From: an uncultured Pseudomonadota bacterium
GTDB taxonomy: Bacteria; Pseudomonadota; Alphaproteobacteria; Rs-D84
Assembly (NCBI GenBank): GCA_949296475.1
Contig: CASFOK010000002.1
Span: 10,660-74,659, forward strand
Length of the DNA stretch: 64,000 bases
Reading direction: 5' to 3'
Position numbers and translations under genes: made by a program
The notes under the pieces: generated by a model
What the model was told of the DNA's origin: nothing
Seen by the model: the letters and a program-made list of their open reading frames with translations, nothing else
Database searches by the model: none
Shown here: one piece after another, positions 23,706 to 59,289 of the stretch
How positions within the stretch are numbered: position 1 is the stretch's first letter
How the letters are laid out: every line of letters begins with the position of its first letter

Positions 23706-23708
23706 AAA

Positions 23709-24797: not shown

Positions 24798-24818
24798 TCA
24801 TATAAACAGGTTCAAAAC

Positions 24819-25820: not shown

Positions 25821-25824
25821 CGTG

Positions 25825-26847
25825 CTATTTACAACTTTTCATAAATTTGCAAATATTACAACGCAGTTTTTTTGTCCATTTATTAGGTGGATTATCAAAA
25901 ACACCTATTTTTTCTAACTCGCAGAAACGTGTACGAGCCACTTCTAAATCTGCATTATTATCTAAATACTTTATTTTTCGGAACGCCCATTTAATAAAAT
26001 ACCATTTAAACTTTTTAGACCACTGACGCATTTGATAATCGTCTGCTTTGTCTTTATACAATAAATAAGAATATTTTATTCCATCGCATAAACTTTGCAA
26101 AATACGAAGTTGTTTTGCTGACAAAACAATGCCACCAAAATTTGGTATATAGAAGTACAAAGGCAATGCACAAATTGTCACGCGCGGATTTTTCAACATG
26201 ATTGCACTCCACCATGGGAAATCTTCAAACAAAATTCCTTTTATAAATGGGGTATCTGCAATCAAATCACGTTTATATAAATTCTTCCACACTTGGCAAT
26301 GTTTTATTAACCATTTTTTATTTGGATTAAATGCATTATGTGCCCGTTCCGTTGCATATGCAAATACATCATCTGTCACCAAAGTTTTTATCTTTGCGGG
26401 ATTATATTTTTTATGAAGTCTTGCCGGTATCACATTATCTGTATCCAGCCCTAATTTATATCGCACCATTAGTTGCGGTCTATATATTCTGTCATATGTA
26501 AAAGACACAATATCAGAATTATCGCGCGACGCCAAATAATGAGTTATTTCCAACGTCTGTGGATGAATAAAGTCATCGCTATCCAAAAACAAAATATAAT
26601 CACCGGTTGCTATTTGCATACCAGCATTTCTCGCATCTGATAAACCACCGTTTTCCTTATTGACTATTTTAAATCTTTTATCACGCGCAGCATATTCAGA
26701 TAATATAACGCTGCTGTTATCCGGACTGCCGTCATTAACACATATCGCTTCCCAATCTTTGAATGATTGATTTAATACGCTGTCCAAGCATCTACGCAAA
26801 TATTTTTCTACATTGTAAATCGGGATTATAACTGAAACAGTGGTCAT
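25825..26847 (-). CDS. Family 2 glycosyltransferase
   Basis: VSVIIPIYNVEKYLRRCLDSVLNQSFKDWEAICVNDGSPDNS and FLDSDD. Confidence 0.85.
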   Translation of the reverse strand: MTTVSVIIPIYNVEKYLRRCLDSVLNQSFKDWEAICVNDGSPDNSSVILSEYAARDKRFKIVNKENGGLSDARNAGMQIATGDYILFLDSDDFIHPQTLEITHYLASRDNSDIVSFTYDRIYRPQLMVRYKLGLDTDNVIPARLHKKYNPAKIKTLVTDDVFAYATERAHNAFNPNKKWLIKHCQVWKNLYKRDLIADTPFIKGILFEDFPWWSAIMLKNPRVTICALPLYFYIPNFGGIVLSAKQLRILQSLCDGIKYSYLLYKDKADDYQMRQWSKKFKWYFIKWAFRKIKYLDNNADLEVARTRFCELEKIGVFDNPPNKWTKKLRCNICKFMKSCK

Positions 26848-26859
26848 AAAATATCCTTT

Positions 26860-27756
26860 TTACATTTTTAACATTTTATCAGCAAAAGACCCTTTTATAG
26901 TTTTTTTCGCTTGATTGTATGTAGTTTTCTGGAAAAACGCCCCAGCAGTAACATCATCAAAAACTTTTTGGTCAAATGGTTTGTTATGATATTTCCACCA
27001 CAGCGCATGTGTTGGATCTTGGTCTACATGCGGCATTTTTGCAAAATATTTCTTTGCCCTTTCATCATTCATAACCAAAGTCTTGAACAGCAACTGATGC
27101 ATAAAATAATCAAAACTACGGTTTTCATGTATCCAATAATCTAAAATCATGGCACGCCAAGCATCTAATAAATAAGCGCCTTTTCTGGACCTAATAAAAC
27201 AATTTTGCATAAAGCTGTATGGGCTACCCACATTTTGACCAGCAAGATAAACAAAAAAATCTTCATCTATAATCCATTGTGGTATTTCTGACGTAGCAAA
27301 ACCCGTTGAATCTAACCAAAAACCACCATATTCATATAATAATTCTACCCTACAGATATCTGCAAAATGAGCATTCTTTATTTTTCCCTGTTTACGTTTT
27401 TTAAGAATTTTTTCTGGCAATGTTATATAATCTAATAACGTTTTTTCATCTAAAACAACCAGTTCTTGTTTACAATGTTTACGAATATTTCTGAAACAGG
27501 CTTTGACTAATTCGGGGGCATTTTCTTCACCCTGCAACCATATAGAAAATATTTTTTCGTTTTTATCATTTTTTTCAACTTTTCTTTCAGGAATGGCGGC
27601 GGCAGCCGGCAGATAACGTTTAAAATATTTTGGTATCGTTTCTGATATTACACCACTGCGTACCGCACGTCTAACGTCCCTGGGACGCCAAAACCAATTT
27701 AAAATATGCCCACGTATTATGATATCAGACATAGCACCTATTCTTGCAAGATTCAT
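26860..27756 (-). CDS. Capsular-polysaccharide-synthesis-type glycosyltransferase (Caps_synth / Gly_transf_sug-like)
   Basis: IWLQGEENAP..., HFADICRVELLYEYGGFWLDSTGF. Confidence 0.65.
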   Translation of the reverse strand: MNLARIGAMSDIIIRGHILNWFWRPRDVRRAVRSGVISETIPKYFKRYLPAAAAIPERKVEKNDKNEKIFSIWLQGEENAPELVKACFRNIRKHCKQELVVLDEKTLLDYITLPEKILKKRKQGKIKNAHFADICRVELLYEYGGFWLDSTGFATSEIPQWIIDEDFFVYLAGQNVGSPYSFMQNCFIRSRKGAYLLDAWRAMILDYWIHENRSFDYFMHQLLFKTLVMNDERAKKYFAKMPHVDQDPTHALWWKYHNKPFDQKVFDDVTAGAFFQKTTYNQAKKTIKGSFADKMLKM

Positions 27757-47355: not shown

Positions 47356-48207
47356 TTATTCACCACGAATGACAATATCTTTACCATCACAAGAAATAGT
47401 CATTGTTTCCCCCTGCGATACAGATACTATATCTTGTGGCACTGGTATATATTCCGCATCTATATGCGTTGCGATATATTCACGCAACCGATTCGCAATG
47501 TCGCACGCATGCTGTGCATCTTCTGGATAATAATTTGCATTCTCTGAAAAAAAATGCTTTGGATCCATTCCATTAAATATCGTCTTGATTGTATCAGCAT
47601 AAATATACATTTCACGACCTGTATTTTCATCAAATACAAGCATTTCCTTTTCTGTATCGCCAAACATTTGTTCAGATAAATATGCCAGACAATTTTTAAT
47701 TTCTTTACGTTGTTCATCTGGTATATTTTGTAGCGTCTCATCAACGGGATATAAAACCGGTTCACACCTAGACCCAACAATATATTGACCATCTGGAATG
47801 TTTTCACCATCATCCATTGTTAAATTATTGTCCGTTGCATGCCATATCGTAAACGTCAATCCGCCTGTCAACAGGCTGTGTCCTAAAACGAATTTCATTT
47901 TTCCTGGTGCTTCATATTCATCGGCTTCGTTTACAGGTAATGTTATTTCTATTACATCATCAATTTGTGGAATTTGGTTATATAACCATGTATGATCCGC
48001 CAACCAGACACTTTTTTGTCCCTGTGCTTTGGCGCGTAATTCTTTTGTCAGACGTTTTACAACCAAATCCGCATGCGTTTCATAAACTTTTGCATCAACC
48101 AACAAATGTCCCTTTGCACCATCTTGACAAACCATTTGCATGTCATACTGTGGTCTGTCACAGGCAGTCAATGCCAACAAACACATGAAGAAAAAAATAC
48201 GTTTCAT
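47356..48207 (-). CDS. Hypothetical lipoprotein
   Basis: MKRIFFFMCLLALTAC lipobox. The ATG at 48207 has AAAGGTGA upstream, so the track start at 48291 is probably too far upstream. Confidence 0.6.
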   Translation of the reverse strand: MKRIFFFMCLLALTACDRPQYDMQMVCQDGAKGHLLVDAKVYETHADLVVKRLTKELRAKAQGQKSVWLADHTWLYNQIPQIDDVIEITLPVNEADEYEAPGKMKFVLGHSLLTGGLTFTIWHATDNNLTMDDGENIPDGQYIVGSRCEPVLYPVDETLQNIPDEQRKEIKNCLAYLSEQMFGDTEKEMLVFDENTGREMYIYADTIKTIFNGMDPKHFFSENANYYPEDAQHACDIANRLREYIATHIDAEYIPVPQDIVSVSQGETMTISCDGKDIVIRGE

Positions 48208-48314
48208 ACCGTCACCTTTACTTATTTTGATTAAACAAAACTCATTATCATCAGATATTTTTATTATAACATTTTTCACAATATAAAACAAATTTTTGAT
48301 ATAATAATAACGTA

Positions 48315-48914
48315 ATGACAGACGAACAAATTAAAAAATCTTTGCAAAAAATTTTAGATAAACTGCACGACGAAAAGAAAGGTATTTTTCGTAATAATTC
48401 AAAATTAAAAAACGGGATAATAAAAACTCAATTAGCACTATCACGTTCAATTCCAATCAAAGATGTACCTTTCAATGTTTCCGGGAAAGAAATAATAGAA
48501 CAAAAATTGGGCGACATAATTTCTTGCACTGGTATGGCCAAAGCATTTTTAGAGGCTGGAAAAAACAGTGGTTTAGATTTAAAGGCTGTCATAACAGTAA
48601 ACAAAGAATTTTTAGATAAAGGCGAAACAAATAACGACCATACTGTCCCCGCAGTAAAAATGCAAGACGGTCAATACCATATTATTGAACCCAGATGCAA
48701 ATATATTGATGCTTCAAATTGCCGTAAATTATTATCTTTACCGGTTAAAATTGGGCAACAAGTATTTCATATACTAAATTCATTGAAAGACCAAGCATAT
48801 GAAGTTGTTGCAATAATTGATCAAGAAGAACTAGAAAAAATAAAAACACTTAAAGATGTAGAAAATAAAAACCATCGTCACAACTTTTTCATAAATATTG
48901 ATAAACAAAGGTAA
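48315..48914 (+). CDS. Hypothetical protein with a possible transglutaminase-like Cys/His core
   Basis: 199 aa. The pattern ISCTGMAKAFLEAGKNSGLDLKAV...DHTVPAVKMQDGQYHIIEP resembles the C...H...D/E core of transglutaminase-like cysteine peptidases. By eye only. Confidence 0.5.
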   Translation: MTDEQIKKSLQKILDKLHDEKKGIFRNNSKLKNGIIKTQLALSRSIPIKDVPFNVSGKEIIEQKLGDIISCTGMAKAFLEAGKNSGLDLKAVITVNKEFLDKGETNNDHTVPAVKMQDGQYHIIEPRCKYIDASNCRKLLSLPVKIGQQVFHILNSLKDQAYEVVAIIDQEELEKIKTLKDVENKNHRHNFFINIDKQR

Positions 48915-49061: not shown

Positions 49062-49091
49062 AAAAACCGACCTGCTCGGTCGGTTTGTTTT
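49062..49091. terminator. Bidirectional intrinsic terminator after tRNA-Tyr
   Basis: aaaccgacc-tgctc-ggtcggttt, with tgttttt on the plus strand and T-rich sequence on the minus strand. Confidence 0.8.
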
Positions 49092-49178
49092 TGGTGGGAG
49101 TGGGTGGATTCGAACCACCTCAGGCTTAAGCCAACAGATTTACAGTCTGCCCCGGCTCTCCAACTCCGGCGCACGCCC
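49092..49178 (-). tRNA. tRNA-Tyr (GUA), type II with a long variable arm; CCA encoded
   Basis: Hand-folded as GGGCGTG-CG-CCGG-AGTTGGAGAG-CCGG-G-GCAGA-CTGTAAA-TCTGT-TGGCTTAAGCCTGA-GGTGG-TTCGAAT-CCACC-CACTCCC-A-CCA. The fold has a C4/U69 mismatch and C at position 8. Confidence 0.85.
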
Positions 49179-49293
49179 AATCTCGTTAAAAATTGTCAAA
49201 AATCGGAAGATGCGACGATTTTGATGCAGGCGAATGTACAAAGCGTACACGACCGGAATCAAAATCAAGCAGATTCCATTTTTCACAATTTTT

Positions 49294-49368
49294 TGGTGCG
49301 GGCAGCGGGAATCGAACCCGCATTTCAAGCTTGGAAGGCTTGCATACTAGCCTTTGTACTATGCCCGC
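49294..49368 (-). tRNA. tRNA-Gly (UCC); CCA encoded
   Basis: Hand-folded as GCGGGCA-TA-GTAC-AAAGGCTA-GTAT-G-CAAGC-CTTCCAA-GCTTG-AAAT-GCGGG-TTCGATT-CCCGC-TGCCCGC-A-CCA. All stems pair. Confidence 0.92.
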
Positions 49369-49451: not shown

Positions 49452-50327
49452 TTATCTGATTCCGTGAATGATGTCCTCTAATTCCATCAAAAATTCCATA
49501 TCATAACCACGAGCCTTTAATCTTTGTAACATCAAATGCGCTGCATTGGCAACCCCTAAACTTTTGCAAATTTCAACAACCGTTACAATTTCATCACGAC
49601 TCATTTTATCCGTAGGCATTAACGCAACCGCCACCCCCAGCTCACGAACAGCAGCACGCATATATGCCGTCTTGTTATCGCAACAACCATATTCATATAA
49701 TATAGCATAATTTTTAGCGTTATTTAAAAACTCATCATAACTATATGCATTTATGTCTATATTTCTCATCAATCTGTTTTCAATGGTTTGACATATTTTT
49801 TCTTCTGAATATAAATATTCACTTGGATTTTTAGTTTCGTAATCAAGTGCTAACAATGCTTCTGCTATTACTTTCTTGCGAAGTGCCATATCAGCAAAAA
49901 ATTTAGAGTTTTCCGGACAACCCTTTTCTGCTAAAACTTCATAAATATGCGCCGAATTAAGTTGTTCATAAGGCCCATCCATTTCATCATCAACAACATT
50001 TTTCAACAATATATTTTCTATGACTTTACACGCTGGGACAACAGCAATATCTTTTGACTCGTCATTGTCTTTTGGTTCTGTAATTTCTGCATCAGCATCA
50101 CTATCAACCGTTTGCACAATTTCCGAGTTAATCTGGTCTGTTACGTTTTGTGCTTCTTGTACAATTTCTTGGTTTTCAACTTTATCAGATAAACCAAACA
50201 CACCGCGTTGATACATACCAAAAACAGTCAGCCCCGCAATCAGCAAACAAAAAATAATCCAAAACCATACCCTGCCCTTACGAACAACTTTTGTCTTTGA
50301 ATCAGTAATTTTGTTTTCTTTTACCAT
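49452..50327 (-). CDS. Hypothetical membrane-anchored protein with two Cys-bracketed helical modules (P291)
   Basis: TM segment VWFWIIFCLLIAGLTVFGMY, acidic linker, and modules CKVIENILL...YEVLAEKGC and CQTIENRLM...YAILYEYGC. Confidence 0.65.
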   Translation of the reverse strand: MVKENKITDSKTKVVRKGRVWFWIIFCLLIAGLTVFGMYQRGVFGLSDKVENQEIVQEAQNVTDQINSEIVQTVDSDADAEITEPKDNDESKDIAVVPACKVIENILLKNVVDDEMDGPYEQLNSAHIYEVLAEKGCPENSKFFADMALRKKVIAEALLALDYETKNPSEYLYSEEKICQTIENRLMRNIDINAYSYDEFLNNAKNYAILYEYGCCDNKTAYMRAAVRELGVAVALMPTDKMSRDEIVTVVEICKSLGVANAAHLMLQRLKARGYDMEFLMELEDIIHGIR

Positions 50328-50341
50328 TTTATTTCCTTTAA

Positions 50342-50593
50342 TTATTTAATTGGCGGAAAGCAACTGTCACCATTTTCAGGGCAACAGTTAAAACCTAGGT
50401 CCCCCATATCTGTAAAAACCTCGCCCGCGCAACAACCATTCTTATCCGGCGCGTTTCCGTCAGGGCAAACAACATCGCTTGTGTTTGTAAGAGAATTTTC
50501 AGCAACGTTTTGCCATAACAACGTTGCCCCCCAACCTATTACTATTCCCAACAACAAAAACAGTAAATACTTTTGCGAAACTGTTATTTTCAT
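50342..50593 (-). CDS. Hypothetical small membrane-anchored protein with a C-terminal 6-Cys domain (P83)
   Basis: TM segment YLLFLLLGIVIGWGATLLW, then CPDGNAPDKNGCCAGEVFTDMGDLGFNCCPENGDSCFPPIK. Confidence 0.6.
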   Translation of the reverse strand: MKITVSQKYLLFLLLGIVIGWGATLLWQNVAENSLTNTSDVVCPDGNAPDKNGCCAGEVFTDMGDLGFNCCPENGDSCFPPIK

Positions 50594-51270
50594 AATGCAT
50601 CACCCGTAGTTATCGGCGGATAACAATCACCGCCATCATCTGGACAACAAGCAAAAATTAAGTTACCCAAATCCTTGAACGTTTCACCCTGACAGCAACC
50701 AAAGCGATTAGGTTTACTTCCATCGGCGCAGAGACCCGCTTCTATATTTGCGGCGACCTGCTCTTCATCTACCTCGTCTATATCTTCGGAAACATCGGTT
50801 TCATTAACAGCACAATCTGCGTCATATTGATCCTGCAACATTGCTTTTTCTTCTGTGCTGCCGGTGGCTACCTCCATAGATTTTTGTAAATCTTTACAAT
50901 TTTGATTTTTCTTAGATAAATATTCATTTAACACTTCTGTTGCGGTTTTAACTTCTACGGTCTGAACATCTTCTGCTGGCTGGGCAACAGGAACGGGGGT
51001 AACAGTTGCCCGACCAGATGTCGAAGTTTTACGTCCGGCAATACTTTTAGAACAATCTTTACGATATCTTTCTTGCAAAGATTTTAATTCTGCAGATACA
51101 GAATCGTCAGGATTTTCAACTGCAGACAGTTCTGATATTTTTTGCTGCATAGTCGGGCAATCCATACGTTCTGCAACATTATTTGCAGTTGCAAAAGTCA
51201 TGCTTGCGTCAAACATTTGCAGACACATTAAAATCGCACCTATAAAAAGACAAATTTTCGCTTTATTCAT
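50590..51270 (-). CDS. Hypothetical secreted protein with two Cys-bracketed modules and a C-terminal 6-Cys domain (P226)
   Basis: Signal peptide MNKAKICLFIGAILMCLQMFDASMTFA and C-terminal CADGSKPNRFGCCQGETFKDLGNLIFACCPDDGGDCYPPI. ATGA overlap with P83. Confidence 0.65.
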   Translation of the reverse strand: MNKAKICLFIGAILMCLQMFDASMTFATANNVAERMDCPTMQQKISELSAVENPDDSVSAELKSLQERYRKDCSKSIAGRKTSTSGRATVTPVPVAQPAEDVQTVEVKTATEVLNEYLSKKNQNCKDLQKSMEVATGSTEEKAMLQDQYDADCAVNETDVSEDIDEVDEEQVAANIEAGLCADGSKPNRFGCCQGETFKDLGNLIFACCPDDGGDCYPPITTGDAL

Positions 51271-51946
51271 ATTTAACTTCTATCAGTTCAGAAGTTATAT
51301 CTAAATAATAAGGGTTTTCTTTTATCTTTTTTCTAAATACCTCGGCTTCTTCCGGCATATCTATTCTGTCATACAGATTCATAAATCTATTCAAATCTAA
51401 CTGTGATCTGCCGTCACCTATTGCATCCGCAATAGACATCTCTCTCACCGTCATAGACCTATACATTTCGGCGTTTTCTGCGCATCCCTTTTCATACAAA
51501 GTGGCATACGTATCCGCATTGTTCATATGTACAAAATAATCCATAGAATCTTCTGGTCTTAATCTTGTTTTCAACAATTGTTCTATACGAACGCAAGTTG
51601 ATAATATGTCATTTTGTTCAGAATTATTTTGTGCGACAGCGTCACGTTCAAATATGACAACGCGTCCCTGACATCCTTTTTCATACGCTTTATTTAAATC
51701 GCGCAATGTATCAATATTATCATCGTTAACGCCTGCAACGGTCAGGTTAAAAATTTCTTGTGCAACAGCTTCGCATTCTTGGGCGCCCATCATCATTTTT
51801 TTATCCGAAGTCTTAAAACCAAGTCCTACGAATAAACCACAGGCAAACAATCCTGCCAAAGCAATAACAGACAATATTTTATGCCTGTTGCTGCATTTAC
51901 AAACCGTATTTTCGTTACTTACAGCGTTTTTTGATAAAGATTTCAT
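51263..51946 (-). CDS. Hypothetical membrane-anchored protein with two Cys-bracketed helical modules (P227)
   Basis: TM segment ILSVIALAGLFACGLFVGLGF. Modules CEAVAQEIFNL...AYEKGC and CVRIEQLLK...YATLYEKGC. Paralogue of P204. Confidence 0.65.
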   Translation of the reverse strand: MKSLSKNAVSNENTVCKCSNRHKILSVIALAGLFACGLFVGLGFKTSDKKMMMGAQECEAVAQEIFNLTVAGVNDDNIDTLRDLNKAYEKGCQGRVVIFERDAVAQNNSEQNDILSTCVRIEQLLKTRLRPEDSMDYFVHMNNADTYATLYEKGCAENAEMYRSMTVREMSIADAIGDGRSQLDLNRFMNLYDRIDMPEEAEVFRKKIKENPYYLDITSELIEVKYE

Positions 51947-51967
51947 TTATCCCCCCTTGTTATATTC

Positions 51968-52582
51968 TTATTTTTCCAAAATATCGGAACTTTGTAAAGT
52001 GTTTAAAAATTGTTGCGTATCTTTATGCATATCGGATTCTATAAAAACCTTTAACACATATTGCACTTTTTGTTCATCATAACCTGGTTGTAATAATTTT
52101 GCGTTCATTTGTTCTTGCTGTGCAAGACCTACATAATATTCTGATTTCTCAGGACATCCTGCATACGCCAACTTATTATAAATCATTGAATTGTATACGT
52201 GTGCTACAAAATTAGGGCTGTCTTCTGGGAACAGTTTTTGCAACAAAATATCTTCTGTAATCTCGCAAGAATTTTTTTGTTTTTTTATATCATCATTATT
52301 AATAATGATTAACCTGCCGGCACAACCGTTTGAATAAGATTCATTTAATTGACGTAATTTATCCACATTATCTTGTGTTGCACCTGCTGTGGTAATATCA
52401 ATAATTTCTTGTGCAACAGCATCACATTCTTGAGGCGTTAATTTTTTAGAATTAAAAAAATCGCTGTTGTACATCAGTCCTAAAAATCCGCCTAAGCAAA
52501 ATAATAAAATCAAGGCCACAACGCAAAAGAATTTTTTCCAAAATCCCGTTTTTTTCTGTTCTTTTACTACAATTTGTTTCAT
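51968..52582 (-). CDS. Hypothetical membrane-anchored protein with two Cys-bracketed helical modules (P204)
   Basis: TM segment FWKKFFCVVALILLFCLGGFLGL. Modules CDAVAQEIIDI...SYSNGC and CEITEDILLQ...NKLAYAGC. Confidence 0.65.
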   Translation of the reverse strand: MKQIVVKEQKKTGFWKKFFCVVALILLFCLGGFLGLMYNSDFFNSKKLTPQECDAVAQEIIDITTAGATQDNVDKLRQLNESYSNGCAGRLIIINNDDIKKQKNSCEITEDILLQKLFPEDSPNFVAHVYNSMIYNKLAYAGCPEKSEYYVGLAQQEQMNAKLLQPGYDEQKVQYVLKVFIESDMHKDTQQFLNTLQSSDILEK

Positions 52583-52610
52583 TTTATTTTCCTACATTAT
52601 TTATTAAGGT

Positions 52611-53321
52611 TTATTTTATTATACCATTTTTTATAGTGATTTGTCTATCGGCACGTGCAGCCAAATTCATATCATGCGTTACAAACAACATTGCCATTTT
52701 GTTTTTACGAACTAAATCCATTAACAAATCAAATACAGTCAAAGCGTGTGCAGGATCCAAACTGCCTGTCGGTTCATCCGCCAGCAATATTTCGGGATTA
52801 TTCGCCAAAGCGCGCGCGACAGCGGTTCTTTGTTGTTCCCCCCCAGACATCTGCCCAGGCAAATGCGACGCCCTGTGAACAACGCTGGCCGCCTGCAGTA
52901 ATTTCATTGCGCGACTGTTTGCTGTATTTTCATCAACGCCGTTTGCCAACATTGGTAAAACGACGTTTTCAAGTGCTGTAAAATCTGATAATAAATTATG
53001 CCTTTGATAAACAAATCCTATTTTTCTTCTGCGCATTAAAGTGCGCATTTCATCATCCATTTTTTGTACGGGCGTTCCATCCAGCAATATGCTTCCCGAT
53101 GTGGGTTTATCCAACAATCCGACGCATTGTAACAGCGTTGATTTTCCACTGCCCGAAGGACCGACCAACGCAATGATTTCACCACGATGTAAATCAAAAC
53201 CGCCACCACGTAAAATATGCAACGGTTGCCCGCCTTCTATGAAGGTCTTTTTAATATCCCGCACAGACAAAACAATGTCAGCCTTGGATACTTTTGATAA
53301 AGAATTTAATATATTCGCCAT
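52611..53321 (-). CDS. lolD: Lipoprotein-releasing ABC transporter ATP-binding protein LolD
   Basis: Walker A GPSGSGKST, signature LSGGEQQR and Walker B LLADEPTG. Adjacent to the LolC/E permease gene. Confidence 0.88.
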   Translation of the reverse strand: MANILNSLSKVSKADIVLSVRDIKKTFIEGGQPLHILRGGGFDLHRGEIIALVGPSGSGKSTLLQCVGLLDKPTSGSILLDGTPVQKMDDEMRTLMRRRKIGFVYQRHNLLSDFTALENVVLPMLANGVDENTANSRAMKLLQAASVVHRASHLPGQMSGGEQQRTAVARALANNPEILLADEPTGSLDPAHALTVFDLLMDLVRKNKMAMLFVTHDMNLAARADRQITIKNGIIK

Positions 53322-53333
53322 TATTTTGTCCCT

Positions 53334-54587
53334 TTACTCGTTTCTTAAAACTTCCACAGGATCTGTGCTGGCCGCTTTCCACGCCGGATAAAGAGTAGCC
53401 AAAAACGCCAACACAATAGCTATAAACGCTATGCCGATAACAGTGCTTGGTACCAGTTTAGAAGGTAATTCCGATAAATAGTATAACTCTGCCGGGAACA
53501 AATCGCGACCGGTGGCCCATTGAAAGAACTGACGAATTGGCTCTATATATATAGCAATCAAAACGCCAAACAACGTTCCAAAAAACGCGCCTATTATACC
53601 GATACTGGTACCTGATAAAATGAATATTTTCATCATAGAACGTCGTGAAACGCCAAAAGTACGTAACACTGCAATATCTTTTGATTTATCTTTAACCAAC
53701 ATAACCAGGCTTGATACGATATTAAAAGCAGCCACAATAACTATCAGCATTAAAATCAAAAACATAACATTTGATTCAACCTGCAAAGCCCCGACAAAAC
53801 CGCGATTTAAATCCCGCCAATCGCGTACGACGAAACCGTCTGGCAGTAATCTTATCAAAGCATCACGCACTTCTTCTGTTTCTTCTGGGTCTTTTAAAAA
53901 TAAATCAATATGTGTAACTGCATTATCAATATTTAAATATTTTTGGGCTGTTTCTAGGGGCATAAATATATATCCCGAATCATATTCGTACATTCCCATA
54001 AAGAACGAAGACATTACTGGATACGCCATAATTCTTGGCATAGAACCAAAAGGTGTGGGCGTTGCACCATTTGCAGATACCAAAGATATATTATCACCCA
54101 TACCAACACGCAAAGCGCGCGTTAACGAAGCACCCGCGACTAATTCACCGTCTGTTATCTTATCCAACGGTTTTCCATAGATTTTCGTACCTGTCGCGGT
54201 TTTCGCCGCCAAATCAGACATTCTTATGCCGCGTATCATCGCCCCCGTATTATTACCATTTGCGGTTGCCATGACCTGCCCTTCGGCAATCGGAACAATA
54301 GACGTTGCGCTATCGGCAACGACTTTGTTTTGTTTCATTTTCTCTATCAAGAAATCGTAATCTGTGATTGCACCGTCTTGATAATAAACAACAACATGAC
54401 CATTCATGCCGACGATACGTGACAACAAAGTATCGTGAAATCCGCCCATTACTGACATGACGACAATCAGAGTTGCCACGCCCAAAGTTATACCTATCAA
54501 AGATACCCACGAAATAACAGAACCAAACCCACGTTTTTTTGCAGATAAATATCTAAAAGCTATTTTTCTTTCTAGTTTTGAAAACAT
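53334..54587 (-). CDS. Lipoprotein-releasing system permease, LolC/LolE family
   Basis: RYLSAKKRGFGSVISWVSLIGITLGVATLIVVMSVMGGF, a MacB-like periplasmic domain and a C-terminal FtsX domain. Confidence 0.88.
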   Translation of the reverse strand: MFSKLERKIAFRYLSAKKRGFGSVISWVSLIGITLGVATLIVVMSVMGGFHDTLLSRIVGMNGHVVVYYQDGAITDYDFLIEKMKQNKVVADSATSIVPIAEGQVMATANGNNTGAMIRGIRMSDLAAKTATGTKIYGKPLDKITDGELVAGASLTRALRVGMGDNISLVSANGATPTPFGSMPRIMAYPVMSSFFMGMYEYDSGYIFMPLETAQKYLNIDNAVTHIDLFLKDPEETEEVRDALIRLLPDGFVVRDWRDLNRGFVGALQVESNVMFLILMLIVIVAAFNIVSSLVMLVKDKSKDIAVLRTFGVSRRSMMKIFILSGTSIGIIGAFFGTLFGVLIAIYIEPIRQFFQWATGRDLFPAELYYLSELPSKLVPSTVIGIAFIAIVLAFLATLYPAWKAASTDPVEVLRNE

Positions 54588-54621
54588 ATATTATTCCTAT
54601 TTATATTTTTCTTAATACATT

Positions 54622-55950
54622 TTATTCACTCAAAAAATCGCGCAACGCATCACCAGCAAGCGGCATTTGTGAATTGCCTGACTTTTCTGCATCAACTATT
54701 GATATTATTCGCGGGGACATAAACACAACTAATTCCGCGAATGGGCTTATCAAAGTTTCCGGCGTGGTTACGAACGAGTGTGTTGGAATACCTATTATTA
54801 TATAATTATCGCCGATACTTGACGGGATATTAAACGAAGACAATTCACCGTTGCTTGTACGCAGTACTATCTTGGCATCAATCTTATCACGACCACCAAA
54901 GTCACCGTATTTTGCGGTCGCGCCTATAATCAAGTCAGTTTCCAACCTATCTTCTTTGCTACATTGCCCGATATCAAAACGTGACTGCCAACCATTAGGA
55001 ATGACAAAACGTCCTTGGGATATCAACACAACGTTTGCTTGCTGCGACAAGAATTCTTGCAGGGTCTTGGTATTAATTTCAGGACTTACCACTAGTGCGC
55101 GCCCCACGATTCCAGGAATTGACATTTTTATATTATTATCACCGAACGCCGGCAACAAGTTCATCCATATAATCGGGTTGTCTGTACGGGGATATACGCG
55201 GTATACATCAATATCCCACGCTAACATATATTTCTTTGACGCTATATCGGAAATTATTTTTGCAACTTCACGTTCTGTCTGATAATTCCCCTCAAAGACA
55301 ACTGTTTTATCTTGCCAATCAACCAACAAATTGCGCATATCGGCGCCATGCATAGCATCCAATAAAGCCATAACAATGTTTTCATCTTTTGGCATTTTTA
55401 CCATCCACTTTGCGCGATGGTTTAAGTGAATTTCACCGGCAGCCGCATCATAAGAATAATAAACCCGCCCCATTTTTGCCATCAATTCAACGGCATCAGA
55501 TAAACTGCCTGACGAAATAGAACCCGAAATTTTTTCTATTACTTCCTCATCTTCAACCACAGATATATCTGTACCATCCAACAACCTATCCAAAGCCTGT
55601 TTTACGGTTAACTGTTTAAAATCGTAATCAGAAACGTTTAATTCTGGTAAATCGTCACCTACCCCTAAACGCACGATTTCTATTTTTTCTTCTGGTACGA
55701 CCGATATTACAGTTTGGTTATCCCAATTCACCTCGCACCTTTTGGGTAAATCAATAGAAAATCTTCGCGCGGTATCTGTTGTTAACGCGGCTTTCTTAGG
55801 AAAGATAGGAACAGAATTTTCATCAATGACGAAGTTTTCTACTACATTGATGGTATCATATTGTTGTTGCTGCGTTTGCGCGGTTTGATTGGCGCAACTT
55901 GTTAAAAATCCCAACGCAATCAAAGCAAATAATTTTTTTAATATCATCAT
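54622..55950 (-). CDS. Hypothetical outer-membrane lipoprotein, secretin-like at the C-terminus (tentative)
   Basis: Lipobox ALGFLTSC. Central AWDIDVYRVYP and C-terminal ...NYIIIGIPTHS...AELVVFMSPRII resemble secretin C-domain strands (viGGl ... eLlifitPriv). The usual P.LG.IP.LG.LF motif is absent. Confidence 0.35.
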   Translation of the reverse strand: MMILKKLFALIALGFLTSCANQTAQTQQQQYDTINVVENFVIDENSVPIFPKKAALTTDTARRFSIDLPKRCEVNWDNQTVISVVPEEKIEIVRLGVGDDLPELNVSDYDFKQLTVKQALDRLLDGTDISVVEDEEVIEKISGSISSGSLSDAVELMAKMGRVYYSYDAAAGEIHLNHRAKWMVKMPKDENIVMALLDAMHGADMRNLLVDWQDKTVVFEGNYQTEREVAKIISDIASKKYMLAWDIDVYRVYPRTDNPIIWMNLLPAFGDNNIKMSIPGIVGRALVVSPEINTKTLQEFLSQQANVVLISQGRFVIPNGWQSRFDIGQCSKEDRLETDLIIGATAKYGDFGGRDKIDAKIVLRTSNGELSSFNIPSSIGDNYIIIGIPTHSFVTTPETLISPFAELVVFMSPRIISIVDAEKSGNSQMPLAGDALRDFLSE

Positions 55951-55986: not shown

Positions 55987-56313
55987 TCAAATATTCATAA
56001 CCCTTTCAAATTCTTCAAGAGTCATTTCATATATTGGTTTTTGTGTTGGTGTGGTTAAATTTTGAACTTTTTTATATCTTTCTTCAAATTTCTTTATTAC
56101 AGCAACCACTTCTGCGGGCACAGTAATAGACTTATCTGCCATTAATCTTCGTCCGTATTCATAAACGAACTCTAAGGTATCGGCTGCAAAAAAACGTCCT
56201 ACATAATTTTCCATAGCGATACCGCCTTTCTCAACGCAAATAGCAGACATCATCATTGCCATTTGATTATAAAAATTTGCCAACTTAATAAAGTTTTGAA
56301 CTGTTATTGCCAT
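55987..56313 (-). CDS. Hypothetical 108-aa cytoplasmic protein; first gene of the minus-strand block
   Basis: ORF with AGGA 8 nt upstream of the ATG at 56313. No recognisable motif. Confidence 0.5.
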   Translation of the reverse strand: MAITVQNFIKLANFYNQMAMMMSAICVEKGGIAMENYVGRFFAADTLEFVYEYGRRLMADKSITVPAEVVAVIKKFEERYKKVQNLTTPTQKPIYEMTLEEFERVMNI

Positions 56314-56388: not shown

Positions 56389-56769
56389 ATGAGAATAAAA
56401 TATCTAGCAATATTATTAATATTATCTGCATGTGCATCTGCCAACCGGGGCAGTATTGACAACGCGACAATATTAAACTGGGAAAACGAATCCGTAACGA
56501 TGGAACAGTTTGTACGCGATCACAAGGCCTGTCTTGGTATTGATAAGCCTTCGTATATGCCCAAGTCACGTATTGCGAAATTAATAGCACCAAACCAAAG
56601 CGACATAATGCCTGACTGGGATGGTTTGTGGGTAACGTTTCAATCAAATGAATATAAAGACGTAGGTCAACGTTCTTTGTTATCTGTTCCCAGAAACACC
56701 ACATCAAAATCTGTTGGTGCATACCGTAAATGTATGTTTAGACGCGGTTATTTACTGCGTGCCAGTTAA
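56389..56769 (+). CDS. Hypothetical lipoprotein
   Basis: MRIKYLAILLILSAC lipobox; 126 aa. Confidence 0.6.
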   Translation: MRIKYLAILLILSACASANRGSIDNATILNWENESVTMEQFVRDHKACLGIDKPSYMPKSRIAKLIAPNQSDIMPDWDGLWVTFQSNEYKDVGQRSLLSVPRNTTSKSVGAYRKCMFRRGYLLRAS

Positions 56770-57513: not shown

Positions 57514-59289
57514 ATGAACTTATTTGATTCGTCTTTTTTATGTCTTGATATAGGTACCAGCGGTGTACGCGGGATTGCACATCGCGTTCGCTCTGGACGA
57601 ATAGACCGTTCTGCGGTATACGCCGTAGACAGTTTTGATACAACTTTTGCTCTAAAATCTACAATTGACGAACTAGAACGTCAAATAGGTTCACATTTTG
57701 ACTCTGCATATATAACTGGTAATTTCGGTCCTGCTTTGTTTGAAATGGTGGCAAAAAGCACTACATGGAACAACGAACATAAAATAAACACATCGGATAT
57801 AAAAAACCAAATTTCACAGATTACAGCGCCAGAAAACTTTTATCCTATGCATATAATACCTTTGCGATACGATACGCCCAGCGCAAGAAACATGTTTTCA
57901 CCAATTGGTCACACAGACAGACAATTAATTTCTGCGTTTGGTGCCGTTTTTTACAGCAAACCTGAATTAGATAAAATGTTTTCCACACTACGTCGGGCGC
58001 ATATTCAATCAGACGCATTATATGACCCACAATATTTACTAAATGCAAGTTTTCGTAAATTAAAACAAAACACTTTATTTATAGATTTTGGTGCACAATT
58101 CACAAGCGCATCCATTTGGACAGACCGTGGCCCTGTATGGTATGAAAAATTAGAACACGGCGGAACAAATATAAGTTTAGATATTTCAGAACAATTAAAC
58201 ATAGATTTTGACGAAGCCGAACGCATAAAACGCAATGTATCCAGTTTGATTCCCAAAGAAATGGACCGCTTTACGCCGGCAGATACAGCTTATGAGTTTT
58301 CTCGCGCAGACGTAAACGATATTGTTTTACCACATATCGTAGATATAATTGCGGAAATAAAAGAAAAATGCACAAATGCGTTTTCAAAATATCGTCCTGT
58401 GCAGATAATAATAACTGGTGGCGGTGCAAATATTGAATCTATGCCCGAATTTATAGAAAACGCGTTTAATTTACCAATAAAAAACCTGCATTCTGATGCA
58501 ACTGTTCGTGCATTATCTTCTTATATTTGGGACGGCGAATCAGAACATCGTCAATCATACATGGCCAGAAAACAAAGATGGGGCAACATAACAAAAAAAT
58601 TAAATATGTTGTTTAAAAGGCGTCACAAAAAACAACAGTTTTTTGTACCAATTTTACCAAGCACGCTTTGCTTTAATATGAAAAGCCCTGTAACATATTC
58701 CATGTTTAAATCCAGTGGCATATCAATGATTCACGTGGACATCATGGACGGTTTTTACGTTGATAGAATCGCCGGCAGTATAAACGAATTAAAATACATA
58801 CGTTCCCACACAGACGCGCATTTGCATGTACATCTTATGACAGAAAGCCCATCTGTTTGGGCCCAAGACGCAATCAGCGCAGGTGCAGACACAATAATAG
58901 TTTCAACTAACACTTCCGGTTTACGAGACGCGTTACGATTAATAAAATCTGCATCACGTCGCGCCGGTGTTGCTCTTAATCCAGATTCGTCTGTTGAAAT
59001 TTTAAAACCGATTTTGCGTGAAATTGACGAGATTATGATAATGACAGTAAAACCGGGGGCCGCCGGACAATCCTTTAACGAGTCTTGTTTAAAGAAAATT
59101 TCCGTTCTTTCGGCAACCAGAAAAAAATATGGCTTAAAATATACAATTTCGGTTGACGGCGGCATAAATCCAGAAACCGCAAAAAAGTGCTGGGATGCCG
59201 GCGCCGATTTATTGGTCTGCGGTTCATACTTAGCAAAAAGTCGCGATTTTCCCGTCGCCGTTCAAAAATTATTAAAACAACCAAGATAA
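57514..59289 (+). CDS. ftsA-rpe: FtsA-like cell division protein fused in frame to ribulose-phosphate 3-epimerase
   Basis: Residues 1 to about 365 show the actin-like FtsA motifs LCLDIGTSGVRG, FIDFGAQFTSASIW and IIITGGGANIESMPEF. Residues about 380-591 are Rpe-like: ILPSTL, HVDIMDG, HVHLM, MTVKPGAAGQ, SVDGG and CGSYL. No stop codon lies between them. Confidence 0.8.
   Translation: MNLFDSSFLCLDIGTSGVRGIAHRVRSGRIDRSAVYAVDSFDTTFALKSTIDELERQIGSHFDSAYITGNFGPALFEMVAKSTTWNNEHKINTSDIKNQISQITAPENFYPMHIIPLRYDTPSARNMFSPIGHTDRQLISAFGAVFYSKPELDKMFSTLRRAHIQSDALYDPQYLLNASFRKLKQNTLFIDFGAQFTSASIWTDRGPVWYEKLEHGGTNISLDISEQLNIDFDEAERIKRNVSSLIPKEMDRFTPADTAYEFSRADVNDIVLPHIVDIIAEIKEKCTNAFSKYRPVQIIITGGGANIESMPEFIENAFNLPIKNLHSDATVRALSSYIWDGESEHRQSYMARKQRWGNITKKLNMLFKRRHKKQQFFVPILPSTLCFNMKSPVTYSMFKSSGISMIHVDIMDGFYVDRIAGSINELKYIRSHTDAHLHVHLMTESPSVWAQDAISAGADTIIVSTNTSGLRDALRLIKSASRRAGVALNPDSSVEILKPILREIDEIMIMTVKPGAAGQSFNESCLKKISVLSATRKKYGLKYTISVDGGINPETAKKCWDAGADLLVCGSYLAKSRDFPVAVQKLLKQPR

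What the first reader, a model, noticed from the sequence alone, without database searches (positions are those of the whole stretch)
49452..52582. Five-gene array of exported proteins built from a repeated Cys-bracketed helical module (no family I can name)
Five consecutive minus-strand ORFs (291, 83, 226, 227 and 204 aa) are packed with gaps of 14 and 21 nt and two overlaps (ATGA at 50590-50593; 8 nt at 51263-51270). Each begins with a single hydrophobic anchor or a signal peptide. Four of them carry two copies each of a module in which two Cys residues bracket 27-36 helix-like residues, with the second Cys sitting in Y-x2-[GD]-C. P204 has CDAVAQEIIDITTAGATQDNVDKLRQLNESYSNGC and CEITEDILLQKLFPEDSPNFVAHVYNSMIYNKLAYAGC. 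P227 has CEAVAQEIFNLTVAGVNDDNIDTLRDLNKAYEKGC and CVRIEQLLKTRLRPEDSMDYFVHMNNADTYATLYEKGC. P291 has CKVIENILLKNVVDDEMDGPYEQLNSAHIYEVLAEKGC and CQTIENRLMRNIDINAYSYDEFLNNAKNYAILYEYGC. P226 has CPTMQQKISELSAVENPDDSVSAELKSLQERYRKDC and CKDLQKSMEVATGSTEEKAMLQDQYDADC. An export signal plus paired Cys suggests periplasmic or surface disulfide-stapled helical hairpins. The local paralogue expansion, visible AT-richness and position next to two tRNA genes give the array an accessory character.
Basis: partly seen in the sequence, partly recalled or inferred. Interest (0 to 1): 0.8.

Follow-up and report, generated by a model that had tools for sequence, protein, structure and literature searches.

The report
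Cysteine-stapled envelope proteins beside lolCD
Five real genes in an uncultured gut alphaproteobacterium encode exported proteins built from three cysteine-containing modules that match no known family; they always follow the lipoprotein-sorting genes lolCD and a secretin-like outer-membrane lipoprotein, and their function is unknown.

Summary
The five minus-strand ORFs, their spacing and the quoted Cys-bracketed segments are exactly as described. The genome belongs to Candidatus Enterousia (order Rs-D84), an uncultured gut alphaproteobacterium of about 0.9 Mb.

Across about 140 related loci the Cys columns are 96-100% conserved. The genes are under purifying selection, with dN/dS of 0.06-0.24. 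AlphaFold2 predicts helical hairpins with the Cys at their open ends.

The "one module" is really three:
- hairpin type A (C-x33-35-C);
- hairpin type B (C-x36-C), not detectably related to A;
- a 6-Cys knot (C-x10-CC-x14-CC-x6-C) that links P83 to the C-terminus of P226.

None matches Pfam, NCBIfam or the PDB, by sequence or by fold. A profile search of 1.84 billion proteins found only 204 clusters.

The array is not accessory. Its GC content equals that of its surroundings. The ancestral unit is a membrane-anchored B-type protein plus a secreted A+6-Cys protein, and it follows lolC-lolD in essentially every genome. A 442-aa lipoprotein, shown here to be secretin-like, lies upstream. The five-gene state is a local tandem expansion.

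Best guess (inferred): a disulfide-stapled periplasmic anchor/ligand complex working with the secretin-like lipoprotein. Function is unproven.

The parts
51968..52582 (-). P204: N-terminal membrane anchor, then type A hairpin (Cys53-Cys87, nt 52322-52426), then type B hairpin (Cys106-Cys143, nt 52154-52267). It is a recent extra copy of the P227-type gene.
   Evidence: ORF. 32% identical to P227 over 192 aa. Module HMM hits: A E=2.7e-13, B E=8e-12. One search finds a best match to P204 in only 5 of 80 species loci, though not all carry both modules. One search counts 4 five-gene loci among about 140.
51263..51946 (-). P227: the core inner-membrane-anchored protein. It has a short cytoplasmic tail with a CxC motif and a conserved transmembrane helix (ALAGLFACGLFVG). 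These are followed by a type A hairpin (Cys58-Cys92, nt 51671-51775), a type B hairpin (Cys118-Cys155, nt 51482-51595) and a C-terminal helical domain.
   Evidence: C118/C155 100% in 68 sequences; transmembrane Cys36 96%; transmembrane conservation. AlphaFold2 model is all-helical with pLDDT above 90 for residues 113-210. No significant PDB fold match: best is 14-3-3, E 0.1, TM 0.3.
50590..51270 (-). P226: the core secreted partner. It has a cleavable-type signal peptide (the 226-aa start, not the 208-aa public gene call) and a type A hairpin (Cys38-Cys73, nt 51052-51159). A disordered Ala/Thr/Pro linker follows, then a divergent A-like hairpin (Cys125-Cys153, nt 50812-50898) and a 6-Cys knot (Cys181-Cys216, nt 50623-50730).
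   Evidence: orthologue signal peptides; Cys 99-100%. AlphaFold2 gives two hairpins with pLDDT above 90, residues 79-105 disordered, and a small beta-hairpin in the 6-Cys domain with pLDDT about 88. No PDB match.
50342..50593 (-). P83: membrane anchor plus a single 6-Cys knot (Cys43-Cys78, nt 50360-50467; pattern C-x10-CC-x14-CC-x6-C).
   Evidence: 47% identical to the P226 C-terminus; six Cys 100% in 36 sequences; HMM E=2.4e-23. Lowest dN/dS of the five, 0.064.
49452..50327 (-). P291: membrane anchor, acidic linker, then two type B hairpins (Cys100-Cys137, nt 49917-50030; Cys179-Cys215, nt 49683-49793) and a C-terminal helical domain shared with the P227 family.
   Evidence: four Cys 100% in 38 sequences; B modules mutually above 99% probability.
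52611..53321 (-). Context: LolD-like ABC ATPase, 28 nt upstream of P204.
   Evidence: Best NCBIfam hit is TIGR02211 LolD, 248 bits, below the 307.75 cut-off. Median 85% identity across species and dN/dS 0.016.
53334..54587 (-). Context: LolC/E-type lipoprotein-releasing ABC permease.
   Evidence: TIGR02212 lolCE, 416 bits, above the 362 cut-off, full length. dN/dS 0.003.
54622..55950 (-). Context: 442-aa outer-membrane lipoprotein (lipobox LTSC), here identified as a divergent secretin-family-like protein. It is always the gene before lolC.
   Evidence: Weak STN hit in 26/30 orthologues. hhalign against a Rhodoferax plasmid 471-aa protein gives probability 97%, E 9e-11 over 287 columns. That protein passes the Pfam Secretin cut-off and hits MshL/PilN models. 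C-terminal ELVVFMSPRIIS aligns with HofQ RELVVFITPRLVS. No direct Pfam Secretin hit.
55987..56313 (-). Context: conserved 108-aa cytosolic orphan protein. It is the first gene of the co-directional cluster.
   Evidence: present in all contexts; no family.
52618..52647 (-). Promoter-like site (TAGACA-18-TATAAT with an extended TG; 11 of 12 matches) inside the 3' end of lolD, just upstream of P204.
   Evidence: This is a consensus match only.
49064..49368 (-). tRNA-Gly(TCC) 49294-49368 and tRNA-Tyr(GTA) 49092-49178, then a bidirectional hairpin terminator at 49064-49086. This is the conserved downstream boundary of the array.
   Evidence: the same tRNA pair follows the array in 20 of 22 loci.

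Best explanation
Shown:
- The five genes are a tandem expansion of a vertically inherited two-gene unit specific to the Candidatus Enterousia / Rs-D84 lineage.
- Gene 1 of the unit encodes an inner-membrane-anchored, periplasm-facing all-helical protein. It has a conserved transmembrane helix, an optional type A hairpin, one or two type B hairpins, and a C-terminal helical domain.
- Gene 2 overlaps gene 1's stop codon. It encodes a Sec-exported protein with a type A hairpin, a disordered linker and one or two 6-Cys knots.
- P204 duplicates gene 1. P83 plus P291 look like a second, split and permuted anchor/knot pair.

Inferred:
- Each hairpin is closed at its open end by one disulfide, and the knot holds three.
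- The anchored helical proteins act as periplasmic scaffolds or receptors that bind the knot proteins.
- The complex works with the secretin-like lipoprotein encoded at the head of the same co-directional cluster. The anchored protein would be the inner-membrane partner of the secretin's N-terminal domain. The knot proteins would be a periplasmic ligand or an exported cargo.
- lolCD lie in the same transcription unit. They are probably the ordinary lipoprotein sorter, which the lipidated secretin needs.
For: - Paralogy and modules.
- Cys conservation and even Cys counts.
- Helical hairpins and a small beta knot predicted with high local confidence.
- Purifying selection, but roughly ten-fold faster protein evolution than the neighbours.
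- Architecture census: the anchor is B, AB, BB or ABB. The secreted partner is A6, AA6 or A66. 92 of 140 loci have just two genes.
- Start/stop overlaps within the pair.
- Invariant context Lipo442-lolC-lolD-anchor-secreted in 80 species loci seeded on the lipoprotein. The same holds in 35 of 35 long metagenome loci seeded on P226 itself.
- The transmembrane helix of gene 1 is the best-conserved segment of a fast-evolving protein. It carries small-xxx-small motifs, which suggests packing against a conserved membrane partner.
- The lipoprotein is secretin-like.
- All genes are co-directional with gaps of 34 nt or less, and the only strong terminator lies after tRNA-Tyr.
Against: - No interaction, localisation or disulfide has been observed. 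Everything functional is inferred from sequence and gene order.
- Gene order in this reduced genome is conserved for unrelated housekeeping neighbours too (uvrB, tsaE, ftsQA, argS). Synteny with lolCD and the lipoprotein is therefore weak evidence of shared function.
- A promoter-like site just upstream of P204 could make the array an independent unit.
- The lipoprotein gets no direct Pfam Secretin hit, and its C-terminal half aligns with secretin domains only weakly (probability 38%).
- The lineage is reported to lack respiratory chains (PMC12306168), so the usual quinone-dependent DsbB route to disulfides may be missing. No Dsb gene lies in the 64-kb window.
Confidence: 0.4

Rival explanations
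1. Stand-alone periplasmic proteins with no functional link to lolCD or the lipoprotein. They would be a lineage-specific envelope stabiliser or protective factor, for example a disulfide-rich inhibitor of host or competitor enzymes tethered by a helical anchor. In this reading they sit next to lolCD only through frozen gene order.
For: - Gene order is generally frozen in these genomes.
- There is a strong promoter-like site at 52647-52618.
- Sequence divergence is fast, median 38-54% identity against 81-88% for the neighbours. That is typical of proteins facing external partners.
- Small Cys-rich domains are often inhibitors. This point rests on general knowledge and was not tested.
Against: - The lolD-to-first-gene gap is tiny and conserved, about 5-50 nt in 80 loci.
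- No locus was found in which the pair occurs elsewhere.
- The conserved transmembrane helix argues for a membrane partner.
Confidence: 0.3
2. Lol-pathway accessory factors. The anchored and secreted proteins, together with the lipoprotein, would replace or assist the periplasmic carrier and outer-membrane receptor steps (LolA/LolB roles) in a lineage that may have lost them.
For: - The genes are strictly adjacent to a bona fide LolC/E (416 bits, above cut-off) and a LolD-like ATPase.
- The conserved transmembrane helix could dock on LolC.
- Alphaproteobacteria lack LolB. This rests on established knowledge and was not tested here.
Against: - The predicted folds (helical hairpins and a small knot) offer no obvious acyl-chain cavity like the LolA/LolB half-barrel.
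- The proteins evolve about ten times faster than LolC/D.
- Presence or absence of LolA in these genomes could not be checked.
Confidence: 0.1
3. Accessory or immunity-type array: a horizontally acquired, tRNA-linked cluster of paralogous exported proteins, for example immunity against periplasm-acting toxins.
For: Copy number varies from 2 to 5 genes per locus. The proteins are small, exported, fast-evolving paralogues.
Against: - The core pair is present at the same site in essentially all loci.
- GC content equals the background.
- There is no integrase or repeat boundary, and the tRNA pair is conserved whether 2 or 5 genes are present.
- Expansion is by local duplication and domain shuffling.
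- The truly variable spot lies on the far side of the tRNAs. P311 and the 199-aa ORF have homologues in only a few loci.
Confidence: 0.05
4. The conserved Cys pairs bind a metal or cofactor, or stay reduced, rather than forming disulfides. This would fit a strictly anaerobic, respiration-less organism.
For: The lineage is reported to lack respiratory chains (PMC12306168). No Dsb gene was seen in the window.
Against: - One isolated Cys pair per hairpin, with no His or extra Cys ligands conserved nearby.
- CC doublets in a 45-residue beta module are classic disulfide-knot features.
- Even Cys parity in 75 of 75 P226-family proteins.
Confidence: 0.1

Closest known systems
Disulfide-stapled helical-repeat proteins of the TPR/Sel1 kind (Helicobacter Hcp proteins; TPR secretin pilotins PilF/PilW). 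The comparison is from my own knowledge.
   Same: They are exported, built from tandem helix-turn-helix hairpins, have conserved Cys pairs that cross-link the repeat, and act as protein-binding scaffolds. Some assist secretins.
   Different: - No Pfam Sel1 or TPR hit above threshold. The only signal is a sub-threshold TPR_IFT121 match, 22.7 bits against a 27 cut-off, to a type B consensus.
- Foldseek's best PDB match is 14-3-3 at E 0.1 and TM 0.3.
- Here a single staple joins the two ends of a hairpin (C-x33-36-C).
- The proteins are inner-membrane-anchored, not lipoproteins.
Granulin-type and other small disulfide knots
   Same: About 45 residues, with CC doublets flanking a predicted beta-hairpin, a CPDG...GCC...CCP look, and an even, invariant set of Cys.
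   Different: Six Cys rather than twelve, with different spacing (C-x10-CC-x14-CC-x6-C). There is no Pfam Granulin hit or any other Pfam or PDB hit, even at E of 10 or less. The resemblance is by eye only.
Two-step export of folded, disulfide-bonded periplasmic proteins: type II secretion through a secretin, and MacAB-TolC export of enterotoxin STII. This is established knowledge.
   Same: A Sec signal peptide, predicted periplasmic disulfide folding, an outer-membrane secretin-like protein and a MacB-superfamily ABC transporter are encoded together.
   Different: - There is no GspE/F, pseudopilin or membrane-fusion protein in the cluster.
- The ABC permease scores as a true LolC/E equivalog.
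- Export of P226 or P83 is untested.
Mitochondrial CHCH and small Tim proteins
   Same: Helix-loop-helix hairpins held by disulfides in an oxidising compartment homologous to the periplasm (PMC12114033, PMC3759932).
   Different: Those use twin CX9C or CX3C motifs giving two disulfides along the hairpin. Here there is one Cys at each end of the hairpin, and there is no sequence similarity.

Membership tests
Any curated protein family (Pfam-A, NCBIfam) | Score above the curated cut-off for at least one of the five proteins | tested here: not met
   the best E-values are 0.009-0.2 and all lie far below the cut-offs. The precomputed Pfam column is empty for the hundreds of homologues listed.
Sel1-like / TPR repeat proteins | Sequence match to Sel1 or TPR models, or a significant fold match to a TPR/SLR structure | tested here: not met
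   There is no Sel1 or TPR hit for the native proteins. An artificial tandem of the type B consensus gives TPR_IFT121 at 22.7 bits, below the 27 cut-off. Foldseek against the PDB has no hit at E of 0.001 or better, and the top hits are 14-3-3 with TM 0.3.
Granulin | Match to Pfam Granulin (PF00396), or the 12-Cys pattern | tested here: not met
   The 6-Cys module and its profile hit nothing in Pfam (E up to 10) or the PDB. Only six Cys are present.
Bacterial lipoproteins (for the conserved Cys in the P227 transmembrane segment) | Lipobox with a small residue (G/A/S) at position -1 and a non-hydrophobic mature N-terminus | tested here: not met
   position -1 is A, T, S, G, V, I or L among orthologues. 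The Cys is followed by 8 or more hydrophobic residues. AlphaFold2 predicts one continuous helix over residues 20-44.
Genomic island / accessory cluster | Deviant composition, a mobility gene, and variable presence at a tRNA | tested here: not met
   GC content equals the background. There is no integrase between lolD and the tRNAs. The core pair is present in essentially all loci. The tRNA pair is conserved.
LolCDE lipoprotein-release transporter (context genes) | Permease above the TIGR02212 cut-off; ATPase above the TIGR02211 cut-off | tested here: inconclusive
   The permease is met: 416 bits against a 362 cut-off. For the ATPase the best hit is LolD, but at 248 bits against a 307.75 cut-off. 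Whether this is the only lolCD copy in the genome could not be checked.
Secretin family (context: the 442-aa lipoprotein) | Pfam Secretin domain (PF00263) in the C-terminal half; an N0/STN-type N-domain | tested here: inconclusive
   There is no direct PF00263 hit, and STN is sub-threshold in 26/30 orthologues. Homology to a protein that does pass PF00263 is strong: hhalign probability 97%, E 9e-11, reaching 30 residues into its secretin domain. Against a 4-sequence secretin-domain profile the probability is 38% at E 3e-4.
Type II secretion / type IV pilus machinery | GspE/PilB ATPase, GspF/PilC platform, and (pseudo)pilins with a prepilin leader near the secretin | tested here: not met
   None is found in the cluster or in 10-kb flanks. 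The N-termini of P83 and P226 lack a G/FxxxE prepilin motif. The rest of the genome was not searched.

The most novel reading that the evidence does not exclude
The whole co-directional cluster would be a previously unrecognised minimal trans-envelope export apparatus. It comprises the 108-aa protein, the secretin-like lipoprotein, the LolC/E-type permease, the LolD-type ATPase, the anchored helical protein and the Cys-knot protein. A MacB-superfamily (Lol-like) ABC engine would be coupled through the disulfide-stapled inner-membrane adaptor (P227 family) to a lipidated secretin. The apparatus would expel folded, disulfide-bonded knot proteins (P226 and P83 families) from the periplasm to the cell surface, where they would mediate contact with a host or partner cell in an obligately dependent gut bacterium.
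Probability: 0.12. Interest if true: 0.85.

Novelty: new variant of a known kind. Interest (0 to 1): 0.55.

Why it matters
Candidatus Enterousia / Rs-D84 bacteria are widespread in human and animal guts. They have genomes of about 0.75-1 Mb and are thought to depend on other cells (PMC12306168), yet nothing is known about their envelope or how they contact partners.

This locus is one of the few lineage-specific gene sets retained in every genome examined. It encodes three protein modules with no relatives elsewhere among 1.8 billion sequence clusters. It is also physically tied to two envelope machines: Lol and a secretin-like lipoprotein.

If the proteins prove to be an adaptor and cargo of that secretin, this would be a new way to build a secretion route. 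If they are only disulfide-stapled periplasmic scaffolds, they would still show oxidative protein folding in a respiration-less anaerobe. They would also supply new small stapled-hairpin and knot folds for structural study.

Tried and rejected
- Pfam and NCBIfam scans of the five proteins, their consensus modules and the neighbours found no family for the array.
- PDB sequence searches with single proteins and with profiles A4, A5 and A7 found nothing meaningful.
- Foldseek against the PDB with both AlphaFold2 models gave no hit at E of 0.001 or better. The 14-3-3 and Pat1 matches are generic helices.
- The single-module idea is rejected by hhalign: type A against type B has probability below 7%.
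- A lipoprotein reading of the conserved transmembrane Cys in the P227 family is rejected, because position -1 is often V, I or L.
- The island or accessory reading is rejected.
- The prepilin or pseudopilin reading of P83 and P226 is rejected, because there is no prepilin leader.
- I looked for distant family members in other genomic contexts. The weakest listed hits, P0133 and P0135, are fragments in the same context.
- I looked for paralogues elsewhere in the 64-kb window and found none.
- I looked for Dsb or LolA genes in the window and found none. The window is only about 7% of the genome.
- The mSphere paper has no held supplement to check gene content.
- A direct PDB search with the lipoprotein, as a single sequence and as a profile, found nothing.
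- hhalign of the lipoprotein against single E. coli secretins was insignificant apart from the C-terminal motif.

Full report
**Observation**

One search lists five minus-strand ORFs at exactly the reported coordinates:

| Name | Coordinates | Length |
|---|---|---|
| P291 | 49452-50327 | 291 aa |
| P83 | 50342-50593 | 83 aa |
| P226 | 50590-51270 | 226 aa |
| P227 | 51263-51946 | 227 aa |
| P204 | 51968-52582 | 204 aa |

The gaps are 14 and 21 nt and the overlaps are 4 and 8 nt. All eight quoted Cys-bracketed peptides are present. tRNA-Gly(TCC) and tRNA-Tyr(GTA) lie just downstream.

GC content of the array is 0.36-0.40 per kb. That cannot be told apart from the window as a whole, about 0.38. 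The "visible AT-richness" is therefore not real.

**The paralogy is real, but there are three modules, not one**

- BLASTP among the five proteins links P227 to P204 at 32% identity over 192 aa. It links P291 to both through two offset alignments, and P83 to the C-terminus of P226 at 47% over 51 aa.
- I built module alignments from orthologues and compared them profile against profile.
- Type A is C-x33-35-C and occurs in P204, P227 and P226. A against A gives probability 96%, E 5e-9. The short second hairpin of P226 is a divergent A (E 2e-6).
- Type B is C-x36-C with consensus C-x2-IE-x2-L...NA-x2-Y-x2-L-x3-GC-x-EN. It occurs in P204 and P227, and twice in P291. B against B gives probability above 99%.
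- A against B gives probability below 7%, so no relationship is detectable.
- The third module is C-x10-CC-x14-CC-x6-C, with consensus GLCxDGxKPNKFGCCxGExFKDMGNLxFACCPxDGGDCFPPI. It forms the C-terminus of P226 and nearly all of P83.
- HMMs of the three modules hit only these five ORFs in the 64-kb window.

The window architectures are:

| Protein | Architecture |
|---|---|
| P204 | anchor-A-B |
| P227 | anchor-A-B-helical tail |
| P226 | signal peptide-A-linker-A'-6Cys |
| P83 | anchor-6Cys |
| P291 | anchor-linker-B-B-helical tail |

**Organism and distribution**

- Exact-match look-ups place the genes on gut metagenome scaffolds.
- A scan of one genome per species, using the upstream lipoprotein as query, found 264 genomes. 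The best 80 are uncultured gut Alphaproteobacteria, many named Candidatus Enterousia.
- This lineage is order Rs-D84. Its genomes are 0.75-1 Mb, it has no respiratory chain, and it is predicted to depend on other cells (PMC12306168).
- In those 80 loci the gene after lolD is almost always a P227/P291-type anchored protein, followed by a P226-type secreted protein.
- A second scan of metagenome contigs was seeded on the P226 family itself, so it was unbiased with respect to context. All 35 loci long enough to judge showed the order lipoprotein-lolC-lolD-anchor-secreted.
- Over about 140 loci, 92 have just the two-gene unit, 24 have three genes, 20 have four and only 4 have five.
- Anchors occur as B, AB, BB or ABB. 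Secreted partners occur as A6, AA6 or A66. The small anchored 6-Cys protein is optional.
- The tRNA-Gly/tRNA-Tyr pair follows the array in 20 of 22 loci checked, whether the array has two genes or five.
- The weakest listed homologues are gene fragments in the same context.

The array is therefore a conserved, vertically inherited feature of the lineage. The window shows a local tandem expansion with domain shuffling, not an accessory island.

**Reality and constraint**

- In alignments whose mean column identity is only about 28%, the module Cys columns are essentially invariant:
  - P227 family: C118 and C155 are 100% conserved in 68 sequences. C58 and C92 are present whenever module A is present.
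  - P291 family: all four module Cys are 100% conserved in 38 sequences.
  - P226 family: C38 and C73 are 99% conserved and the six knot Cys are 100% conserved in 75 sequences.
  - P83 family: all six Cys are 100% conserved in 36 sequences.
- dN/dS against the closest relative is 0.06-0.24 for the five genes. It is 0.003-0.03 for lolC, lolD and the lipoprotein.
- Median identity to orthologues is 38-54% for the five genes, against 81-88% for the neighbours.
- Ectodomain Cys counts are even in 75/75 P226-type, 93% of P227-type, 92% of P83-type and 61% of P291-type proteins.

**No known family**

- Pfam and NCBIfam give nothing near threshold.
- The homologues listed by the three word-indexed searches carry no Pfam annotation and, at best, the name "hypothetical protein".
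- An exhaustive HMM search of 1.84 billion cluster representatives, with the anchored-family profile, found just 204 clusters. All are 75-346 aa long.
- PDB sequence searches with profiles found nothing.

**Structure**

- AlphaFold2 with family alignments gives an all-helical P227 with mean pLDDT 76, and above 90 for residues 113-210.
- Its helices are 55-71 and 78-91 (module A), 117-126 and 137-153 (module B), and then four more.
- P226 is modelled as two helical hairpins, 38-49/56-76 and 110-134/139-153, both with pLDDT above 90. The linker 79-105 is disordered. The 6-Cys domain contains a small beta-hairpin with pLDDT about 88.
- In each A or B module the first Cys sits at the start of helix 1 and the second just after helix 2. 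These are the two ends of an antiparallel hairpin.
- Foldseek against the PDB has no significant hit. For P227 the best is 14-3-3 at E 0.1 and TM 0.3. For P226 there is nothing better than E 2.5.

**Topology**

- P204, P227, P83 and P291 have a basic N-terminal tail followed by a single hydrophobic stretch of about 21 residues.
- P226 has a classical signal peptide, provided the 226-aa start is used. Some public gene calls use a 208-aa start that removes it. Orthologues have clear signal peptides.
- In the gene directly after lolD, the transmembrane helix (W-G-x-[IV]-A-L-x-G-L-F-x-C-G-x3-G) is the most conserved part of the protein.
- Its Cys is 96% conserved but is not a lipobox. Position -1 is often V, I, L or T, and hydrophobic residues continue after the Cys.
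- Such conservation in an otherwise fast-evolving protein suggests packing against a conserved membrane partner. This is an inference.

**Surroundings**

On the same strand, all gaps are 34 nt or less. The cluster runs in this order:

1. A 108-aa orphan protein (55987-56313).
2. A 442-aa lipoprotein (54622-55950).
3. A LolC/E permease (53334-54587). It scores 416 bits against TIGR02212, above the 362 cut-off.
4. A LolD-like ATPase (52611-53321). Its best hit is LolD at 248 bits, below the 307.75 cut-off.
5. The five genes of the array.
6. The two tRNAs.
7. A strong bidirectional terminator at 49064-49086.

A promoter-like 11-of-12 match lies inside the end of lolD at 52647-52618.

The lipoprotein had no family, but I could place it:

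- It has a weak STN (secretin/TonB N-terminal) match in 26 of 30 orthologues.
- tblastn against plasmids gave as best hit a Rhodoferax "PulD-like" lipoprotein.
- Profile comparison with that protein gives probability 97% and E 9e-11 over 287 columns, running into its secretin domain.
- That Rhodoferax protein passes Pfam Secretin (34.6 bits against a 27.5 cut-off). It also hits the MshL and PilN secretin models, and it sits next to another secretin and type IV pilus-type genes.
- The C-terminal ELVVFMSPRIIS aligns with the C-terminal RELVVFITPRLVS of E. coli HofQ.
- A small secretin-domain profile aligns with residues 208-333 at E 3e-4 and probability 38%.

I conclude that the lipoprotein is a divergent secretin-family-like protein. 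Its C-terminal barrel is not proven.

**How it most likely works**

- Shown: an anchored helical protein and an exported knot protein are encoded as an overlapping gene pair. The pair is conserved lineage-wide, sits next to lolCD and a secretin-like lipoprotein, and has invariant paired Cys.
- Inferred, step 1: the Cys pairs form structural disulfides, one staple per hairpin and three per knot.
- Inferred, step 2: the anchored proteins are periplasmic scaffolds that bind the knot proteins. The apparent co-duplication of a helical gene (P291) with a knot gene (P83) fits paired partners.
- Inferred, step 3: the complex works with the secretin-like lipoprotein, either as its inner-membrane partner plus ligand or as adaptor plus exported cargo. 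lolCD would be the ordinary sorter that the lipidated secretin needs.
- I give this combined reading about 0.4.

The main rival, at about 0.3, is that the proteins are stand-alone envelope factors. Gene order is frozen for unrelated neighbours too.

**Comparison with known systems**

- The hairpin proteins work like TPR/Sel1-type stapled helical repeats, but they fail every membership test run here.
- The knot looks like a granulin by eye, but it has six Cys and matches no model.
- The cluster recalls two-step export of folded, disulfide-bonded proteins (type II secretion; MacAB-TolC with enterotoxin STII). It lacks their defining parts, and its ABC permease is a LolC/E equivalog.
- I therefore rate it a new variant of a known kind (exported disulfide-stapled repeat and knot proteins). 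It is built from three orphan modules and its function is unproven.
- The most novel reading not excluded is a secretin-plus-Lol-type-ABC export apparatus. I give it about 0.12.

Noticed in passing
window 54622-55950 (-): The 442-aa lipoprotein upstream of lolC is extremely conserved, 77-97% identical across 80 species. It has no family hit above threshold, yet it is homologous to a secretin-family lipoprotein of a Rhodoferax plasmid (hhalign probability 97%). No type II secretion or type IV pilus genes lie nearby.
   Followed up: yes
window 57514-59289 (+): A 591-aa protein combines an FtsA/actin-like domain (residues 189-323) with a ribulose-phosphate 3-epimerase domain (residues 397-573; E 8e-44). 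It sits next to ftsQ. The same 589-592-aa fusion is called in relatives L001, L005 and L009.
   Followed up: partly
window 55987-56313 (-) and 56389-56769 (+): There are two conserved orphan genes at the head of the cluster. One is a 108-aa cytosolic protein directly upstream of the lipoprotein. The other is a divergently transcribed 126-aa lipoprotein (lipobox LSAC). Neither has a family.
   Followed up: partly
window 51263-51946 (-), residues 13-44 of P227, and orthologues in L011-L090: The P227 family has a conserved cytoplasmic CxC / CC-S-x2-H-K motif just before the transmembrane helix. It also has a 96%-conserved Cys inside a helix rich in small-xxx-small motifs. Its purpose is unknown; metal binding, acylation and helix packing are possibilities.
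   Followed up: partly
window 49452-55950 compared with L011: Synonymous divergence from the closest relative is uneven along the cluster. dS is 0.08-0.11 for P291, P83 and P226, but 0.25-0.51 for P227, P204, lolD, lolC and the lipoprotein. This hints at a recent recombination or gene-conversion tract covering the distal three genes.
   Followed up: no
window 47356-48914: An orphan lipoprotein (311 aa, minus strand) and a 199-aa ORF (plus strand) lie between tRNA-Tyr and a methyltransferase gene. They have homologues in only a few related loci, and L005 carries a DUF488 gene there instead. The truly variable spot is on this far side of the tRNAs, not in the array.
   Followed up: partly
window about 22860-27756: This is the stretch with the lowest GC in the window: 0.28-0.34 at 23-27 kb, against about 0.38 overall. 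It encodes glycosyltransferases, a Stealth-family protein and a capsular-polysaccharide synthesis protein. It is a likely surface-polysaccharide locus of foreign or fast-evolving origin.
   Followed up: no
window 50590-51270 (-): Public gene calls disagree on the start of P226 (208 aa against 226 aa). Only the 226-aa form has the signal peptide seen in orthologues, and it creates the 8-nt overlap with P227.
   Followed up: yes
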